A stretch of 64,000 nt of DNA from an uncultured Candidatus Saccharibacteria bacterium (GTDB lineage: Bacteria > Patescibacteriota > Minisyncoccia > Phycocordibacterales > UBA2100): NCBI GenBank assembly GCA_964462785.1, contig CAYWZA010000002.1:1061-65060 (forward strand). Reading direction: 5' to 3'. Numbering within the stretch: position 1 is the stretch's first letter; the number at the start of each line of letters is the position of its first letter. Under the pieces are notes generated by a model, which was given only the letters and a program-made list of their open reading frames with translations, made no database searches and was not told where the DNA came from. Shown here one piece after another: positions 853 through 48,483 of the stretch. Both the position numbers and the translations under genes were made by a program.

Positions 853-2571
853 CTATGACGAGTACATCTTTACGTCGGCGTCCAAGTTTACTGTGCGCTC
901 CACCTCATCAAAAGAAGTAATACCGCGCAACACTTTCACCATGCCGTCTTGTGACATACGGCGGATCTGTTGCCGTTCTGCAGAGCGCCATATCTCACGC
1001 TCGCTCGATGTGGAACGAACAACCTTTTCCAGCTCCTCATCCATAAATATCGCTTCAACAATACCGATGCGTTTCTTGTAACCCATATTTCCGCACTCAG
1101 GGCATCCTTTTGGAAGCCACATCGTCTCCCGATTCTCCGGCATGTCGTCCGGGTGCGGCACGTTTTTCAGTAATTTATCCATAATCTCCTTTGCGCGCCC
1201 TGTGATTGGCACCGCCTCTCTGCAGTGCTCGCACAAAATACGCACGAGACGCTGTGCCATCGCCACGTTTACCGATGAGCCGAGGATTTCCGGTTGAATA
1301 CCCATGTCGATCAAACGGGGGAATGTGCCCGCAGCGTTGTTGGTGTGGAGTGTGGTAAACACCAAGTGACCAGTGAGTGCGGCGTGCACGGCGGTCGATG
1401 CAACTTCAGCATCACGAATTTCGCCCACCATGATGATATCGGGATCTTGGCGCAACGTGCTGCGCAAACCCTGCGCGAACGAGTACGTTTTTGATACCTG
1501 TGTTTGCACAACACCGGGGAGATGATATTCAATCGGGTCTTCAATAGTAACAATCTTCACCCCCGGCTTGTGCACCGCCTTCAAAAACGCATACAGCGTG
1601 GTGGTTTTACCGGATCCAGTGGGACCGGTGTTGAGAATCATGCCATTAGGGCGCTCGATTTCCTTCAAGAAAATATCCATCAGATACTTATCAAAACCCA
1701 AATTATCGAGAGAAAGACCGATCGTCGATGGATCAAGAATACGCATCACGATCGTCTCGGCGTAGTTGCCGGGGAGCACTGACACGCGAATCTCAATTTC
1801 CTTTTGGTTCACCACAATACTAAAACGACCGTCCTGCGCTATGTTTTTGAGATTCAATTTAAGACCAGAAAGGAGTTTGATGCGCGACGACACCAACGCA
1901 TAGGTGGTGTGATCAAAGGTGAGGATCTCACTCAGCACGCCGTCGAGGCGGTAGCGCATACGCACCAACCCTTCTTCGGGCTCGAGGTGCACATCGGACG
2001 CGCGCAGCGAAAGAGCGCCCGCCATGATGATTTCAAGTACGCGCGAAATGCGGTGTGCATCTTTACTACCCACATTCTCTCCGATGTGGCTGCTCACATC
2101 CTGGGTTGTTTTAAGTTCGGAGAGCATTTTCTGAATTGCCTCGTTTGAGATAGTGAGCACACCAGCCTCTGTTTCCGTTGCGAGAGAAAGATCACCATAG
2201 CGATCCCAGGCGTGTTCGAGGGAGGCGCTCGATACCATAAAGCGGCGCACCTGATAGCCAAGGCGTTCAAGATTTTGGACGCTTTGCAGGGAATTAGCGC
2301 GTTCGGGGGCGCGCATAGCGACAAACAGGCGCTTGCCGATCTTGCGAAATGCTGCCACCTCCGCTTCGCGCGCGTCTTTTTCCGGCACCAACTGCAGTGC
2401 GTCGGTGTCTATGGATTTGCTGGTGAGATCGGTGTATTCGACGTTGTATTTTCCCGCGAGTGCCTTTGCGAGCTCCTCTTCCTCGCGTTTGCGGAGCTGC
2501 TCGACGCGCTCGGTACTTTTCTGGTCATGGAACTGCGTAGTCATTGCTGATATTTTAGCACGTGCTATCAC
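853..2571 (-). CDS. pilB: Type IV pilus assembly ATPase, PilB/GspE family
   Basis: The 572-aa ORF carries the Walker A motif GPTGSGKTTTL and the GspE-family motifs IIMVGEIRD and TGHLVFTTLHTN. The true start may be an internal Met (MTTQFHDQ). Confidence 0.85.
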   Translation of the reverse strand: MIARAKISAMTTQFHDQKSTERVEQLRKREEEELAKALAGKYNVEYTDLTSKSIDTDALQLVPEKDAREAEVAAFRKIGKRLFVAMRAPERANSLQSVQNLERLGYQVRRFMVSSASLEHAWDRYGDLSLATETEAGVLTISNEAIQKMLSELKTTQDVSSHIGENVGSKDAHRISRVLEIIMAGALSLRASDVHLEPEEGLVRMRYRLDGVLSEILTFDHTTYALVSSRIKLLSGLKLNLKNIAQDGRFSIVVNQKEIEIRVSVLPGNYAETIVMRILDPSTIGLSLDNLGFDKYLMDIFLKEIERPNGMILNTGPTGSGKTTTLYAFLKAVHKPGVKIVTIEDPIEYHLPGVVQTQVSKTYSFAQGLRSTLRQDPDIIMVGEIRDAEVASTAVHAALTGHLVFTTLHTNNAAGTFPRLIDMGIQPEILGSSVNVAMAQRLVRILCEHCREAVPITGRAKEIMDKLLKNVPHPDDMPENRETMWLPKGCPECGNMGYKKRIGIVEAIFMDEELEKVVRSTSSEREIWRSAERQQIRRMSQDGMVKVLRGITSFDEVERTVNLDADVKMYSS

Positions 2572-13405: not shown

Positions 13406-13478
13406 CCGCCCTTAGCTCAGTTGGTAGAGCAGCTCCCTTTTAAGGAGTTGGTCGTTGGTTCGAATCCAACAGGGCGGA
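13406..13478 (+). tRNA. tRNA-Lys (anticodon TTT)
   Basis: A manual cloverleaf fits. The acceptor stem CCGCCCT pairs with AGGGCGG. The D-arm is GCTCAGTTGGTAGAGC, the anticodon loop is CTTTTAA and the T-arm is GTTGGTTCGAATCCAAC. Confidence 0.8.
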
Positions 13479-13486
13479 CATGACAG

Positions 13487-13513
13487 AAAAACCTGCACTG
13501 ATGCAGGTTTTTC
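13487..13513 (+). terminator. Rho-independent terminator after tRNA-Lys
   Basis: The hairpin is aaaacctgca, loop ctga, then tgcaggtttt, followed by a T-run. Confidence 0.7.
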
Positions 13514-13584
13514 GGTACATGTCCGAGCCGCAGCGCGACCAAAGTTTCTTCGAGTGAAGCGAGTTAGAAACTGGGAGTACTCCT

Positions 13585-13705
13585 GTGGTGATGTTTTTGT
13601 TTGCCGGAGCGAAGCGCAGGCAAGGCAAAAACCGCGAGGCGGGTGAGCTGCGAATACTTGCAGCAGCGCAAGACCTTTTGAGCGATTTTGGAGTGCGCCA
13701 GCACG
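13585..13705 (+). repeat. tRNA-linked structured repeat element, copy E1 (degenerate, downstream of tRNA-Lys)
   Basis: The core gatgtttttgtttgccggagcgaagcgcaggcaaggcaaaaaccgcgag is about 94% identical to the core downstream of tRNA-Arg-TCT at 42107. A second hairpin (gcgattttg...caaaatcgc) follows. Confidence 0.6.
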
Positions 13706-13776
13706 AACAAAATCGCCAAAAGGTGTACAGGTCATGTAATGACCGCGACCGAGCGCGCGAGAGTTGTGACAACAAA

Positions 13777-14163
13777 CTATAACGGCAAATCAAACGCAAA
13801 CGCACCCGGACCGGTGATCATGACTGAGAAAGACATTACCAAAAGAAGGAGTGTGGTGCTCAAAGGGAAAGGTCGAGCGGGGCGACCGAGTATGAGCCAT
13901 GCGAGAGTGAGCAGTACACCCAAAAGAGCGCCAAGCTGTGCGTAAGAGCCGAGCATAAGGGAGAGGGCGCATGCGCACTCAAGCAACGCCATGATGTACG
14001 CGAGGGGAGATCGAATACCGCGCGCGTGGATGTATGCCGCGAGTGCAAATACCACCGCCGCTGCAGCGCGGATGATAAGCGCGGAGAGTGGGGTAAGAAA
14101 CAAGAGCTCAGGAAACATGCTCAACATGCACATATCGTAGCATGATGATAAGGTGGGGTGCAT
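13777..14163 (-). CDS. Hypothetical small integral membrane protein (128 aa)
   Basis: The ORF is strongly hydrophobic with several predicted TM segments. No recognisable family was found. It overlaps the start of the next gene by 11 nt. Confidence 0.3.
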   Translation of the reverse strand: MHPTLSSCYDMCMLSMFPELLFLTPLSALIIRAAAAVVFALAAYIHARGIRSPLAYIMALLECACALSLMLGSYAQLGALLGVLLTLAWLILGRPARPFPLSTTLLLLVMSFSVMITGPGAFAFDLPL

Positions 14164-18896: not shown

Positions 18897-18953
18897 GACG
18901 GAGTTTGCGAATTGTTTATGGTCACAACTCGCGCCGGCTTCCGCCGGCTCGTT

Positions 18954-19142
18954 CGTGTCCCCTCGGCCGGAATCGGTCACGAATAAATCGCCTGACGGCG
19001 ATTTTTCGCTACCCCGGCTCGCGGTTTTTGTCTCCCCCTCATTTCATTCGGGGAAACAAAAACATCGCTGCGCCTTTCGATTCCGGACGCACAGTGCTCA
19101 AGCGCTATGCTCCGAGGGGACAGTTTTCGCTTCGCTCACGTG
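18954..19142 (-). repeat. tRNA-linked structured repeat element, copy E2, with a perfect 22-bp duplicate of the tRNA-Arg 3' end at its distal border
   Basis: The 22-mer cgtgtcccctcggccggaatcg occurs at 18954-18975 and again at 19139-19160. The second copy is the 3' end of the minus-strand tRNA plus 4 trailer nt. On the minus strand the interior holds the core gcagcgatgtttttgttt, hairpin 1, aaaaaccgcgagccgggg, hairpin 2 (aaatcgccgtcaggcgattt) and tcgtgacc. Confidence 0.7.
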
Positions 19143-42041: not shown

Positions 42042-42095
42042 CGCGAGGGCACACAAGCACAAAACCTGCCCTGCGGCAGGTTTTGTGCTTGTGTG
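42042..42095 (+). terminator. Strong hairpin terminator after tRNA-Arg-TCT
   Basis: The stem is cacaagcacaaaacctgcc, the loop is ctgc and the return strand is ggcaggttttgtgcttgtg. Confidence 0.7.
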
Positions 42096-42285
42096 CCGGG
42101 CGCAGCGATGTTTTTGTTTGCCGACGCGAAGCGAGGCAAGGCAAAAACCGCGAGCCGGGGTCGCGAGATTTTTCCGTCAGGAAAAATACTCGTGACCACA
42201 AAAAGCGCTTAGTGACCGTCAGGTTGATTCCTACCGAGGGCACACACAAACATCCCGCCTGCGCGTGATGTTTGTGTGTGCCAGC
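42096..42285 (+). repeat. tRNA-linked structured repeat element, copy E3, with a degenerate duplicate of the tRNA-Arg-TCT 3' end and a terminal hairpin
   Basis: The core gcagcgatgtttttgtttgccgacgcgaagcgaggcaaggcaaaaaccgcgagccggggtcgcga is followed by hairpin 2 (gatttttcc, gtca, ggaaaaatac), then tcgtgacc, then ggttgattcctaccgagggcaca at 42222-42244. The matching tRNA 3' end is ggttcgattcctcgcgagggcaca. The perfect inverted repeat cacacacaaacatc...gatgtttgtgtgtg closes the element. Confidence 0.7.
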
Positions 42286-43819: not shown

Positions 43820-43948
43820 AATAATTAAAGTTATACATTAGCCCAAAATAATAAAACGTACGCTCATAGTAGCATGTGCGGTGAGTTATCGGGGGGGGTG
43901 GGGATTGCCGGCATTTCTGCACAAAACAACGGTCGGGCAATCCTATTT

Positions 43949-44125
43949 GGCGCGCGCTAAGGGACTCGGTCACGGATAATTTTTGTTGCACAAAATTTCC
44001 GCGACCCAGCCTCGGCGTTCCCACTTCGCTCCGCTGCGGGGGACCCTGCGCCTCCGGCTTTCTCGTCCCGTATCACCGCACAAAATAAAATCGCCGAATG
44101 CTGGCGCATCCGGCTTCTTATTTTG
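43949..44125 (-). repeat. tRNA-linked structured repeat element, copy E4 (diverged), with a partial duplicate of the tRNA-Val 3' end
   Basis: Read on the minus strand, hairpin 2 is aattttgt, gcaa, caaaaatt, followed by atccgtgacc, then cgagtcccttagcgc (plus 43953-43968). This matches the tRNA-Val T-arm and acceptor 3' strand for 15 nt. Confidence 0.6.
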
Positions 44126-44198
44126 TGGGCGCTAAGGGACTCGAACCCCTGACCTTCTCAGTGTAAATGAGTTGCTCTACCAACTGAGCTAAGCGCCC
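44126..44198 (-). tRNA. tRNA-Val (anticodon TAC)
   Basis: The reverse complement reads GGGCGCTTAGCTCAGTTGGTAGAGCAACTCATTTACACTGAGAAGGTCAGGGGTTCGAGTCCCTTAGCGCCCA and fits a cloverleaf. There is one A-A mismatch in the anticodon stem. Confidence 0.7.
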
Positions 44199-48343: not shown

Positions 48344-48429
48344 GCCCGGGTGGCGAAACTGGCTAGACGTACCACCTTGAGGTGGTGGCGCCCGTTAAGG
48401 GCATGGAGGTTCGAGTCCTCTCCCGGGCA
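48344..48429 (+). tRNA. tRNA-Leu (anticodon GAG), type II
   Basis: The acceptor GCCCGGG pairs with CCCGGGC. The anticodon stem-loop is CCACC TTGAGGT GGTGG. There is a long variable arm, and the T-arm is GGAGGTTCGAGTCCTCT. Confidence 0.75.
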
Positions 48430-48483
48430 CAAAAAACAAAGACGTGGAATGCGAAGCATTCCACGTCTTTGTTTTTTGTGCCC
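48430..48483 (+). terminator. Hairpin terminator after tRNA-Leu
   Basis: The stem caaaaaacaaagacgtggaatgc has loop gaag and return strand gcattccacgtctttgttttttg. Confidence 0.7.

What the first reader, a model, noticed from the sequence alone, without database searches (positions are those of the whole stretch)
43949..44198. Copy E4 of the tRNA-linked element downstream of tRNA-Val, with the same junction position in the T-loop
On the minus strand, tRNA-Val-TAC is followed by a diverged copy. Hairpin 2 is aattttgt, GCAA, caaaaatt, then ATCCGTGACC. Directly abutting this is cgagtcccttagcgc, which is identical for 15 nt to the tRNA-Val T-arm 3' half plus acceptor 3' strand. The junction again lies right after GGTTC of the T-loop. 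Four different tRNAs carry the element. Each partial duplicate matches its own host tRNA. This means the duplication is generated at insertion (a target-site duplication of about 20 bp) or by recombination within the tRNA T-arm. It is not carried as a fixed attachment sequence.
Basis: seen in the sequence. Interest (0 to 1): 0.75.

Follow-up and report, generated by a model that had tools for sequence, protein, structure and literature searches.

The report
Folded element behind Patescibacteria tRNA genes
Copy E4 is a real, slightly decayed member of an apparently uncatalogued family of ~100-base folded elements that sit just behind many tRNA genes in ultra-small (Patescibacteria) bacteria, usually followed by a copy of the end of their own tRNA; how they arise and what they do is still unknown.

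Summary
CGAGTCCCTTAGCGC occurs exactly twice in the window: inside tRNA-Val(TAC) and 54 nt plus one element further downstream. A covariance model built from other genomes scores E4 at 60.7 bits (E=1e-14).

E4 belongs to a family found in more than 100 Patescibacteria MAGs. It is a three-helix junction, P1-GAAA-P2-GG-P3. The conserved parts are GCC GGAG..CGA GGC GG GGUCGCG..CGUGACC. Covariation is strong and one G.U pair is conserved.

P1 is host-derived. Its 5' strand (X') is the complement of tRNA nt 57-65. Its 3' strand (X2) is a direct copy of the tRNA starting right after GTTC56 (52/52 mapped junctions). Copy lengths are bimodal: 6-14 nt or 17-24 nt.

In the sampled loci 105 of 182 tRNAs carry an element. 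More than 35 anticodon species are occupied, and occupancy depends on the anticodon.

There is no Rfam match, no viral-contig match, and no recombinase, RT or transposase that travels with it.

A fixed ~20-bp target-site duplication does not explain the inverted copy, the bimodal lengths or the variant architectures.

Best reading (about 0.42): a small non-autonomous insertion at T-loop position 56/57 that supplies a replacement tRNA 3' end. Main rival (about 0.30): a resident cis-acting RNA domain of tRNA transcripts. The function is unresolved.

The parts
44126..44198 (-). Host gene tRNA-Val(TAC), intact; no encoded CCA
   Evidence: ARAGORN; Rfam tRNA 70.2 bits; sequence checked
44129..44143 (-). 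X1: tRNA nt 56-70 (3' part of the T loop, T-stem 3' strand, start of acceptor 3' strand). This is the first copy of the 15-mer.
   Evidence: Exact 15-nt match, 2 occurrences in the window against 0.04 expected
44078..44128 (-). Spacer with an intrinsic-terminator-like hairpin: stem-loop GCCGGATGC GCCA GCATTCGGC at 44093-44114, T run GATTTTATTTT at 44082-44092. The outer stem CACAAAATAA/TTATTTTGTG begins in the last bases of the tRNA.
   Evidence: Sequence; predicted in the RNA fold of the region. 35 of 75 family members have such a hairpin plus T run between tRNA and core.
44065..44069 (-). X': GGGAC, the 5' strand of closing helix P1. It is complementary to GTCCC, both in X2 and in the tRNA's own nt 59-63.
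   Evidence: Covariance-model alignment; family-wide P1 covariation; X' is the Watson-Crick complement of the T-stem 3' strand
44059..44064 (-). Junction J1/2, GAGAAA (the 'GA-GAAA' subfamily; the other subfamily has TC-GAAA)
44009..44058 (-). P2: GCC GGAG [37-nt variable hairpin] CGA GGC. The conserved internal loop is GGAG/CGA.
   Evidence: Model alignment. GCC/GGC swaps to GGC/GCC in other members and the inner stem is 99% paired with double changes.
44007..44008 (-). Junction J2/3, TG (family consensus GG); one of E4's departures from consensus
43968..44006 (-). Lower stem GGTCGCGGA/TCCGTGACC with the conserved G.T, bulged A, upper stem, 8-nt loop.
   Evidence: P3 is 98% paired across 48 sequences with 9 pairs changing on both sides. 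The G.U is kept in 136 of 142 members.
43954..43968 (-). X2: second copy of the 15-mer. It directly abuts P3 (the C at 43968 is shared with P3), and its GTCCC forms the P1 3' strand. From 43953 onward it has diverged from the tRNA (GCGCC against CCACA).
43902..43943 (-). Hairpin after X2 (GGATTGCC..GGCAATCC), in the position a tRNA trailer hairpin would occupy. Not followed by a T run.
   Evidence: Sequence; predicted in the fold of the region

Best explanation
SHOWN. E4 is a member of a conserved family of ~90-130-nt elements confined, as far as sampled, to Patescibacteria and mainly Paceibacteria-type lineages.

Each element folds on the tRNA-sense strand into a three-helix junction. P2 and P3 carry near-invariant junction nucleotides. 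P1 is made of host sequence: an inverted copy (X') and a direct copy (X2) of the tRNA's T-loop/T-stem 3' half. X2 begins exactly after GTTC56 and in two thirds of cases runs to the tRNA 3' end.

The overall anatomy is: tRNA(..X1) - spacer, often a terminator - X' - core - X2.

INFERRED, most likely mechanism. The unit [X1 - spacer - X' - core] is a small non-autonomous insertion in the T loop between nt 56 and 57. Like the attP of tRNA-integrating islands, it brings a replacement 3' end for the tRNA (X1), often with a terminator. The original 3' end (X2) is displaced downstream, where it decays or is trimmed.

X' pairs with X to form a duplex that mimics the target, with the ~90-nt core at its tip. 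This is the geometry of folded single-stranded attachment sites, such as the CTXphi attP(+) hairpin and integron attC. One strand exchange at 56/57 between such a hairpin and the tRNA gene would give exactly the observed order X1-spacer-X'-core-X2.

Mobilisation would need a trans-acting enzyme that has not been identified. Spread between genomes can also occur by homologous exchange anchored in the conserved 5' part of the tRNA.

E4 itself looks old: short P1, TG instead of GG in J2/3, and a decayed X2 tail.
For: Family and structure:
- Pattern scan of genome contigs: at least 119 loci, nearly all Patescibacteria.
- Model R1 scores E4 at 60.7 bits and finds 149 hits in 100 loci.
- 92% of cells are paired against 75% in shuffles, with 240 double-change cells against 72.
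- The G.U is conserved in 136/142 members. G.U to A.C counts elsewhere in P2/P3 are roughly 50:18 (approximate hand tally).

tRNA link:
- 105 of 182 tRNAs are followed by an element within 300 nt on the same strand.
- 52 of 52 mapped junctions come after GTTC.

Insertion-like traits:
- Host-specific direct plus inverted copies.
- X' is the Watson-Crick complement of the T-stem 3' strand, not a copy of the tRNA's own G.U-containing 5' strand. So it was templated or selected as a complement.
- Members occur next to partial pseudo-tRNAs, upstream of genes with a copy of the gene's 5' part, and beside an antisense 5S fragment.
- Tandem and partial copies exist.
- kb-scale cargo lies between the tRNA and X'-core-X2 in L013, L014 and L050.
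- Distribution across lineages is patchy: 58% of tRNAs occupied in pattern-selected loci against 4 hits per 99 tRNAs in an independent Patescibacteria-like sample.
- Identical cores sit at different tRNAs in different genomes, while copies within a genome are no more alike than copies between genomes.
- L093/L116: the block from T arm to X2 was exchanged as a unit, with unrelated DNA beyond X2.
- 35 of 75 copies lie behind a terminator-like hairpin. That fits an element supplying a terminator better than an RNA that must be co-transcribed.
Against: - No recombinase, transposase, HUH protein or reverse transcriptase is recurrent near the element.
- The one candidate, a large serine recombinase, is not associated with it.
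- No empty site or excised circle was observed. The attempt to find orthologous empty sites failed.
- No model explains how one core subfamily comes to carry matching X1/X'/X2 for many different tRNAs.
- Occupancy is specific to tRNA type and similar across genomes, including this window.
- Orthologous cores are better conserved than flanking DNA: L080/L097 core 99%, spacer 91%, downstream 65%.
- A discrete class keeps only nt 57-65 of X2, which is exactly the P1 strand.
- L076 shows a compensatory X'/X2 change away from the tRNA sequence.
- 10 of 75 copies lie between two tRNAs of one operon and so must be transcribed.

The last five points argue for selection in place, that is, a resident function. 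The strand-specific G.U fits RNA as well as single-stranded DNA.
Confidence: 0.42

Rival explanations
1. Resident cis-acting RNA domain of tRNA transcripts. The three-way junction is a functional RNA (processing signal, protein-binding platform, folding insulator or ligand-sensing switch) in tRNA trailers and operon spacers.

X' can pair either with the tRNA's own nt 57-65 (X1) or with X2. The transcript therefore has two alternative folds, and the core plus X2 control or neutralise the pairing that would unfold the tRNA. The tRNA-derived arms arose by local duplication and are kept by selection.
For: - Always on the tRNA-sense strand, and 97 of 153 hits are directly downstream of a tRNA.
- 10 of 75 lie between two tRNAs of one operon.
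- Strong covariation, conserved junction nucleotides and a conserved G.U.
- Occupancy by tRNA type is conserved across genomes.
- Orthologous cores are conserved above the flanks, and a compensatory change is seen in P2b between L093 and L116.
- The short X2 class equals the P1 strand.
- The predicted fold of the E4 region pairs X' with the tRNA's own 3' part; z=-4.5 for the region.
- No mobility gene is linked and no viral copies were found.
Against: - About half of the copies lie behind a terminator-like hairpin plus T run.
- Some members lie beside an antisense 5S fragment or upstream of genes.
- Partial and tandem copies, cargo-carrying versions and patchy lineage distribution are untypical of a housekeeping RNA.
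- X' would not threaten tRNA folding if the element were absent, so the 'insulator' logic is circular.
- No ligand, protein or RNase can be named.
- E4 alone folds only marginally better than shuffles (z=-1.96), and its minimum-energy fold lacks P1 and the P2 base.
Confidence: 0.3
2. Self-cleaving (and possibly self-ligating) ribozyme. The junction would be a new small nucleolytic ribozyme cutting at the P3/P1 boundary (GACC|GA).

The same C|GANN-T-stem sequence occurs at nt 56/57 of the tRNA and at X2. Cleavage at both sites followed by ligation would excise [X1-spacer-X'-core], perhaps as a circle, and leave an intact tRNA.
For: - Two architectures behave like circular permutations of one fold: an open P1, or a closed 5' hairpin with ends GAG...GACC. 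This is a habit of self-cleaving ribozymes.
- A sharp, invariant 3' boundary at GACC.
- Conserved junction purines and a conserved G.U.
- Two identical candidate sites flank the unit.
Against: - No match to any ribozyme family in Rfam 15, even at E<=5-10.
- J1/2 is not conserved across architectures (GAAA, CAAG, CCG).
- Cutting at nt 56/57 would destroy the tRNA.
- The terminators in half of the spacers work against this.
Confidence: 0.1
3. Ordinary scars of integrase-borne islands or prophages. X2 would simply be the attR repeat left by conventional tyrosine- or serine-integrase elements that have since been deleted, and the 'core' would be their conserved arm sequence.
For: - A partial tRNA 3' copy at the far end of an insert is the standard signature of integration into tRNA genes (PMC9897764).
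- Three loci have kb-scale inserts: one with a large serine recombinase (L050) and one with ThsB-TIR/SLATT cargo (L013).
Against: - More than 140 copies lack any integrase.
- The recombinase family tested is not linked: 4 cores in 626 kb carrying 80 recombinase genes.
- No copies were found in 2.9 million viral contigs.
- The core is a covarying multi-helix structure conserved across orders, not an arm-site array.
- Roughly half the tRNAs of a ~1-Mb genome being occupied is not expected from independent island decay.
Confidence: 0.08
4. Chance similarity or low-complexity coincidence at E4.
For: - P1 of E4 is only 5 bp.
- The thermodynamic z-score of E4 alone is modest, -1.96.
Against: - The 15-mer is unique to the two sites.
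- The model score is 60.7 bits, E=1e-14.
- The same anatomy is seen at about 100 other tRNA loci.
Confidence: 0.01

Closest known systems
Genomic islands, prophages and ICEs integrated in tRNA genes, including crossover in the T loop (Williams 2002, from my own knowledge; tRNA gene fragments as attR sites, PMC9897764)
   Same: There is an intact tRNA on one side and a direct repeat of its 3' end on the other. Identity starts inside the T loop and runs to the tRNA end. The inserted DNA supplies the expressed 3' end. A few loci carry cargo.
   Different: The insert is 100-250 nt rather than kilobases, and no integrase is present. A conserved folded core abuts the distal repeat. An inverted copy of the target lies inside the insert. 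About half of all tRNAs in a genome are occupied.
Folded single-stranded attachment sites: CTXphi attP(+) used by XerCD at dif, and integron attC (from my own knowledge)
   Same: Two inverted target-like sequences about 90 nt apart pair into a hairpin that mimics the target duplex. The fold is strand-specific, with bulges and non-Watson-Crick pairs. Exchange of a single strand would give the observed order direct copy - inverted copy - intervening sequence - direct copy. The enzyme acts in trans.
   Different: The target is a tRNA T loop, not dif or attI. The stem sequence differs for every tRNA. The intervening sequence is itself a conserved two-helix junction. No Xer or IntI dependence has been shown.
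Small structured repeats of bacterial genomes: REP/BIME, Rickettsia palindromic elements, MITEs (from my own knowledge)
   Same: They are short, non-coding, multi-copy and able to fold. They occur in reduced genomes and sometimes in tandem.
   Different: The terminal arms here are not constant but copied from the host gene. There is no fixed-length target duplication. Association with tRNA 3' ends is strict and orientation is fixed. The fold is an asymmetric three-way junction, not a simple palindrome.
R2 retrotransposon 5' HDV-like ribozyme (from my own knowledge)
   Same: It is a site-specific element living in a host RNA gene. It is co-transcribed with that gene, and host-gene sequence forms part of a helix of the element's folded RNA.
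   Different: There is no reverse transcriptase, no HDV-like fold, and the setting is bacterial. In R2 the host gene is interrupted, whereas here it is kept intact.
Retron msr-msd RNA (from my own knowledge)
   Same: The closing stem is made from inverted repeats at the two ends, and it encloses one short and one long hairpin.
   Different: No reverse transcriptase gene lies downstream in more than 100 loci. Estimated tens of copies per genome (extrapolated, not counted). The closing repeats are tRNA-derived.
E. coli tyrT locus: 178-bp repeats downstream of tRNA-Tyr, each holding the last 19 nt of the tRNA (from my own knowledge)
   Same: A copy of the tRNA 3' end is repeated downstream of the gene, after the trailer.
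   Different: That is a single locus arising from local tandem duplication. It has no conserved folded core shared among tRNAs or species.

Membership tests
tRNA-integrating island/prophage/ICE (integrase-mediated) | Direct repeat of the tRNA 3' end bounding the insert, with an intact tRNA at the other end | tested here: met
   E4 has a 15-nt repeat. In the family, 52 junctions carry repeats of 6-24 nt.
tRNA-integrating island/prophage/ICE (integrase-mediated) | Integrase (tyrosine or serine recombinase) gene inside the insert, usually next to the tRNA | tested here: not met
   There is no room for one in the ~170-nt insert at E4. No recurrent protein family was found in 119 loci. The serine recombinase family of L050 is not linked to the core.
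tRNA-integrating island/prophage/ICE (integrase-mediated) | Presence in phage or plasmid-like sequence (free form carrying attP) | tested here: not met
   The core pattern gave 0 matches in viral contigs. Plasmid collections were not searched.
MITE / DDE-transposon derivative | Constant terminal inverted repeats shared by all copies | tested here: not met
   The arms (X'/X2) differ with each host tRNA.
MITE / DDE-transposon derivative | Target-site duplication of fixed length | tested here: not met
   Copy lengths range from 6 to 24 nt and are bimodal. Some members have none (E1).
Folded-ssDNA att site elements (CTXphi-type IMEX, integron cassettes) | Two inverted target-like sites that fold into a target-mimicking hairpin | tested here: met
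   X' and X2 flank the ~90-nt core and pair: 71% of P1 cells are paired, and all 7 pairs covary.
Folded-ssDNA att site elements (CTXphi-type IMEX, integron cassettes) | Target is dif/attI and recombination is carried out by XerCD/IntI | not testable with these tools
   The target here is the tRNA T loop. No recombinase could be assigned.
Known RNA families (Rfam 15, including hammerhead, twister, twister-sister, pistol, hatchet, HDV, group I/II introns, tmRNA, RNase P) | Score at or near the family's gathering threshold | tested here: not met
   Only tRNAs were found at gathering thresholds. Nothing credible overlaps the core at E<=10 in the E4 region or at E<=5 in eight loci of the other architecture.
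Retron | Reverse transcriptase gene immediately downstream of the msd | tested here: not met
   No recurrent ORF family was found next to the element. E4 is followed by a peptidoglycan-binding protein gene.
IS91-family rolling-circle transposons (target GTTC; from my own knowledge) | Insertion 3' of GTTC, plus an HUH Y2 transposase and ori/ter ends | tested here: inconclusive
   The junction follows GTTC in 52 of 52 cases, but GTTC is the universal T-loop sequence. No transposase is nearby. The element's ends were not compared with IS91 ends.
The element family itself (model R1) | P2 GCC-GGAG..CGA-GGC, J2/3 GG, P3 GGUCGCG..CGUGACC with G.U and a bulged A, and a closing helix made with the sequence that follows GACC | tested here: met
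   E4 aligns end to end at 60.7 bits. Its deviations are UG in J2/3 and a 5-bp P1.

The most novel reading that the evidence does not exclude
The core is a new functional RNA, either a ribozyme or a ligand/protein-controlled switch, that works on its own pre-tRNA.

X' can pair with the tRNA's nt 57-65 or with the identical downstream copy. The transcript therefore has two equivalent folds. In one of them the tRNA body is completed by X2, and [X1-spacer-X'-core] is looped out of the T loop like an intron.

Cleavage and ligation at the two identical C56|R57 junctions would excise a ~150-250-nt, possibly circular, RNA. This would also be a route to spread. It would amount to a previously unknown class of T-loop intron or RNA-based mobile element in bacteria.
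Probability: 0.12. Interest if true: 0.95.

Novelty: categorically new. Interest (0 to 1): 0.72.

Why it matters
If the family is what it appears to be, a large fraction of tRNA genes in a major branch of the ultra-small Patescibacteria carry a conserved folded module built partly from the tRNA's own 3' end. The module is absent from Rfam 15, and the limited literature searches run here found no description of it.

Two outcomes are possible, and either would be new biology:
- A new kind of gene-healing, recombinase-less insertion element aimed at one phosphodiester of the T loop. That bears on how tRNA genes act as integration and rearrangement hot spots in reduced genomes.
- A new cis-acting RNA that takes part in tRNA production in organisms with minimal RNA-processing machinery.

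On the practical side, the copies of tRNA ends and the pseudo-tRNA pieces can confuse tRNA annotation and island-finding tools. The covariance model built here gives a way to annotate them.

Tried and rejected
1. Link to a large serine recombinase. L050 has one between the tRNA and the core, and L013 has a truncated one. I fetched 80 metagenome loci with relatives of it. They hold 99 tRNAs but only 4 cores, so the link is rejected.

2. Any linked protein. All-against-all clustering of ORFs from 119 loci gave only synteny genes; the top cluster is PilM in 15 loci.

3. Known RNA families. Rfam at gathering thresholds and at permissive E-values, on E4 and on the second architecture, gave nothing.

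4. Phage origin. The core pattern has 0 matches in viral contigs.

5. Empty-site test. I fetched homologues of the neighbouring 501-aa peptidoglycan-binding protein and their contigs. There was no conserved synteny and no tRNA, so the test was uninformative.

6. X' as a direct copy of the T-stem 5' strand (a pseudo-tRNA with an insertion in its T loop). Rejected for the common architecture: where the tRNA has a G.U in the T stem, X' carries the Watson-Crick base. It does hold for the rarer 'closed-hairpin' architecture (L081).

7. Inferring selection from X' pairing better with X1 than with X2 (9 cases against 2). Withdrawn: conditioning on X1 differing from X2 produces this asymmetry under neutrality.

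8. Recent within-genome bursts. Copies within a locus are not more alike than copies between loci (0.67 against 0.71).

9. Literature searches for a description of such an element. Only general papers turned up: group I introns in Patescibacteria tRNAs (PMC13011429) and tRNA gene fragments left by integration (PMC9897764).
Full report
**Observation.**
On the minus strand, tRNA-Val(TAC) occupies 44126-44198. The 15-mer CGAGTCCCTTAGCGC (tRNA nt 56-70) recurs at 43954-43968. These are the only two matches in the window even with two mismatches allowed, against 0.04 expected.

Between the two copies lie four parts:
- a terminator-like hairpin with a T run (44082-44114);
- GGGAC-GAGAAA (44059-44069);
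- a 50-nt helix, GCC GGAG..CGA GGC (44009-44058);

The second copy of the 15-mer directly abuts the last helix. The description is therefore correct. Only the exact arms of hairpin 2 were slightly mis-drawn.

**A widespread family.**
I derived the pattern CGAGSCKGGGTMGCG-N(23-27)-CGTGACC from E2-E4. About nine hits are chance matches in GC-rich genomes. The rest are Patescibacteria MAGs from many studies, labelled Paceibacterota, Kaiser-, Nomura-, Zambryski-, Taylor-, Yonathbacteria, 'Saccharibacteria' and others.

From 48 gapless members I drew a structure and built covariance model R1. On that alignment 92% of cells are paired, against 75% after shuffling and at most 45% when partners are slid. 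There are 240 cells with changes on both sides, against 72 expected. The inner P2 stem and P3 are 98-99% paired.

R1 contains no window sequence. It scores E4 at 60.7 bits (E=1e-14), E2 at 55.8, E3 at 44.2 and E1 at 18.4. With filters off it finds nothing else in the window. In 100 loci it finds 149 copies, 47 of which were not selected by the pattern.

Those 47 show that the P3 base covaries: GGCTGCG/CGTAGCC, GGCCACG/CGTGGCC. The G.U at its fifth pair is kept in 136 of 142 members. Elsewhere G.U outnumbers A.C by roughly 50 to 18 (approximate hand tally). The fold is therefore specific to the tRNA-sense strand, as RNA or as single-stranded DNA.

Rfam 15 has no match, at gathering thresholds or at E<=5-10.

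**Relation to tRNAs.**
In the fetched loci plus the window, 105 of 182 tRNAs with enough downstream sequence are followed within 300 nt, on the same strand, by an R1 hit. The median gap is 54 nt, and 97 of 153 hits sit in that position. These loci were chosen for containing an element, so the fraction is inflated.

The pattern by anticodon is still informative:
- High occupancy: Ser-GCT 10/12, Val-TAC 8/10, Arg-TCG 5/5, Tyr 4/4.
- Low occupancy: Leu-GAG 0/7, Ser-TGA 1/8, His 1/5.

The window follows the same rule. Lys, Arg-GCG, Arg-TCT and Val-TAC are occupied. Ser-TGA, Leu-GAG and His are not.

An independent sample of 86 Patescibacteria-like loci holds 99 tRNAs and only 4 cores. The family is therefore lineage-restricted rather than universal.

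Of 78 pattern hits with a tRNA within 400 nt upstream, 52 are followed immediately by an exact copy (at least 6 nt) of the tRNA. In all 52 the copy starts right after GTTC, that is, at nt 57 with C56 shared.

Copy lengths fall in two groups: 6-14 nt (19 cases, clustered at 7-9, which is nt 57-65) and 17-24 nt (33 cases, running to the tRNA end).

**The closing helix is host-derived on both strands.**
Just 5' of the conserved GAAA lies X', a sequence complementary to the start of the copy.

Where the tRNA's T stem contains a G.U, X' carries the Watson-Crick base (L009, L038, L047, L060, L078, L099, L106, L112). X' is therefore a complement of nt 57-65, not a duplicate of the T-stem 5' strand.

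In some members the complement extends over the whole 3' end: E2 in this window, L013 and L022.

The general anatomy is X1 (in the tRNA) - spacer - X' - core - X2. P3 and P1 share a continuous 3' strand, so they can stack into a helix of about 25 bp, with P2 branching off.

**Variant architectures.**
- (a) The element directly follows the tRNA's trailer hairpin. The descending strand of that hairpin serves as X', and the flank (ACAAA..) copies its ascending strand. E3 is of this kind.
- (b) An extra mini-hairpin lies between GACC and the tRNA piece.
- (c) A 'closed' form: GAG-hairpin-GCAAG-P2-GG-P3. Here the first helix is an ordinary hairpin and the element lies inside the T loop of a partial tRNA copy (L081). 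It also occurs in a pseudo-tRNA-Glu upstream of the real tRNA-Glu (L037, L075, L089, L101), or after a copy of the 5' part of the downstream gene (L121 tRNA-Gly, L111 tRNA-Ile, L095, L044). In L005 and L114 it lies beside an antisense 5S rRNA fragment.

Form (c) is topologically a circular permutation of the common form. If X' pairs with X1 instead of X2, the common form becomes form (c) inserted between nt 56 and 57.

**Tests of explanations.**
- No protein family recurs near the element.
- Three loci have kilobases between the tRNA and X'-core-X2:
  - L050 has a large serine recombinase.
  - L013 has ThsB-TIR and SLATT genes and a 178-nt repeat starting exactly at CGAGCC.
  - L014 has three to four repeats of tRNA end, terminator and promoter.
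- The recombinase family is nevertheless not linked to the core.
- The core is absent from 2.9 million viral contigs.
- 35 of 75 members have a terminator-like hairpin plus T run between tRNA and core, as E4 does. 10 of 75 lie between two tRNAs of one operon.
- Copies within a locus are not more alike than copies from different genomes (0.67 against 0.71). Identical cores occur at different tRNAs in different genomes, for example L031 Val and L081 Ile.
- Orthologous pairs:
  - L080/L097 show core 99%, X2 95%, spacer 91% and downstream 65% identity.
  - L093/L116 are identical through tRNA nt 1-48. They then differ at 15 positions, all between the T-stem 5' strand and X2: both T-stem strands, X' and X2 change together, and P2 shows a compensatory pair. 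Beyond X2 they are unrelated.
  - The block from T arm to X2 therefore moves as a unit, with a breakpoint inside the tRNA.
- The RNA fold of the whole E4 region pairs X' with the tRNA's own 3' part (z=-4.5). E4 on its own folds only marginally better than shuffles (z=-1.96) and, apart from P3, not in the family structure.

**Interpretation.**
What is shown is a new, conserved, strand-specific three-helix element tied to tRNA 3' ends. Its closing helix is built from the host tRNA, and its junction is fixed at nt 56/57.

How it arises and what it does are inferred. A plain ~20-bp target duplication fails on three counts: the inverted copy, the bimodal lengths and the variant contexts.

I favour, at about 0.42, a small non-autonomous insertion at 56/57 whose 5' part (X1, often with a terminator) replaces the tRNA's 3' end, while the displaced original (X2) decays. 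The order X1-spacer-X'-core-X2 is what exchange of one strand between a folded hairpin (X':X, with the core at its tip) and the tRNA gene would produce. CTXphi at dif and integron attC work this way (my own knowledge). The scars, pseudo-tRNA pieces, arrays, cargo-bearing versions, patchy distribution and the L093/L116 exchange all fit this reading.

Against it:
- no enzyme, empty site or circle was found;
- retargeting to more than 35 tRNA species is unexplained;
- several features point to selection in place, namely type-specific occupancy, cores conserved above their flanks, the class that keeps only the P1 strand, compensatory changes, and location inside operons.

Hence a resident cis-acting RNA is a serious rival at about 0.30. 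A self-cleaving/ligating ribozyme is a smaller one at about 0.10. These readings are not mutually exclusive: a domesticated insertion would show both sets of traits.

**E4 itself.**
E4 has every family part. It is off-consensus in three ways: 5-bp P1, UG in J2/3, a long P2 hairpin. Its X2 tail has diverged after 15 nt. This is consistent with an old copy.

**Comparison and novelty.**
The closest known things are tRNA-integrating islands, folded single-stranded att sites, REP/RPE/MITE-type repeats, the R2 ribozyme that uses host rRNA sequence, retron RNAs and the E. coli tyrT repeats. For each, a defining feature that could be tested was not met; the exceptions are the tyrT repeats, which were not put to a membership test, and the folded-att-site class, whose enzyme-and-target feature could not be tested. 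The untestable or failed features include an integrase, constant inverted repeats, fixed target duplication, a dif/attI target, an RT gene and an Rfam score.

I found no description of the element in Rfam 15 or in the searchable literature. I therefore rate the family as lying outside known kinds, with the caveat that its mechanism is not established.

Noticed in passing
L128-L207 (e.g. L129 1892-3558, L133 8001-9666, L164 8001-9595); also L050 931-2544: A family of large serine recombinases (Resolvase + Recombinase + Zn-ribbon domains) sits in about 50 metagenome loci with its 3' end overlapping or abutting the 3' end of a tRNA gene on the opposite strand. The tRNAs include Ser, Arg, Glu, Ala, Leu, Ile, Tyr and Met. 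This looks like a serine-integrase island family whose attP/tRNA-restoring segment is embedded in the recombinase coding end. It is not linked to the structured core.
   Followed up: partly
L013 1428-4629: A 3-kb insert is flanked by 178-nt direct repeats (97% identical) that begin exactly at CGAGCC inside two cores with different 5' halves. The cargo is a truncated recombinase C-terminus, a ThsB-like TIR protein and a DUF4231/SLATT protein, a defence-like pair.
   Followed up: partly
L014 5135-7759: The module 'tRNA-Ala 3' end + terminator + TTGACT..TATAAT promoter' is repeated three to four times over 2.5 kb. Small genes lie in between: a 183-aa membrane protein and a 110-aa DnaJ-type zinc-finger protein. 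Only the last module is preceded by a core. It looks like cassettes accreting at a tRNA end.
   Followed up: partly
window 48419-48482 (tRNA-Leu-GAG trailer); 42046-42095 (tRNA-Arg-TCT trailer); 13472-13526 (tRNA-Lys trailer): tRNA trailer hairpins in this genome start inside the tRNA. Their ascending strand includes the last 4-6 nt of the acceptor 3' strand plus the discriminator, for example GGGCACAAAAAAC..GTTTTTTGTGCCC. The terminator therefore competes with acceptor-stem pairing. This holds for tRNAs with and without the element.
   Followed up: no
window 13590-13800 (E1) and 18905-18955 (after E2): E1 is composite. It has a P2 module followed by GGGTGAG-hairpin-GCAAG, the 5' module of the 'closed' architecture, then further hairpins, and it ends in ..GCGACCGAGCGCGCGAGAGTTGTGAC. 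A very similar piece, CGAGCCGGCGGAAGCCGGCGCGAGTTGTGACC, follows X2 of E2. Both resemble the 49-nt P3 variant seen in L017, L041 and L106, which suggests partial tandem cores.
   Followed up: partly
window 42198-42244: After E3 the copy of the tRNA-Arg-TCT end (GATTCCTACCGAGGGCACA) differs from the resident tRNA (..CCTCGCGAGGGCACA). It matches the T stem of tRNA-Arg-TCT in another genome instead (L072, GATTCCTACCGAGGGGATA). A second GTGACC lies 8 nt before it. This is possibly the remnant of an older element or of a foreign tRNA allele.
   Followed up: partly
L005 ~960-1130 (-) and L114 2000-2250 (+): In two different genomes the element is preceded by a partial copy of an antisense 5S rRNA segment (..CCGTGTTCGGAATGAG|) and followed by what reads by eye as the antisense complement of a 5S rRNA gene (clearest in L005; not confirmed by an Rfam search).
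   Followed up: no
L037 2400-2600, L075 2560-2790, L089 1170-1380, L101 270-460: A pseudo-tRNA-Glu lies about 25-45 nt upstream of the real tRNA-Glu in four genomes. It keeps the 5' three quarters of the tRNA, carries the closed-form element in its T loop and lacks an acceptor 3' strand. In L037 it also has a 28-nt hairpin inserted in the anticodon loop.
   Followed up: partly
L050 962-1095/2506-2639 and 2631-2794/5012-5175: Two pairs of long, near-perfect inverted repeats (134 nt at 99%, 164 nt at 100%) bracket the recombinase gene and the cargo. This is either an invertible segment or an assembly artefact.
   Followed up: no
L093 vs L116 (tRNA-Thr-GGT loci): Two nearly identical genomes differ in both strands of the tRNA-Thr T stem (AGCAG/CTGCT against TCCGG/CCGGA). 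They differ in the same way in the downstream copy X2. Completely different DNA follows X2, which marks a recombination breakpoint inside a tRNA gene.
   Followed up: yes
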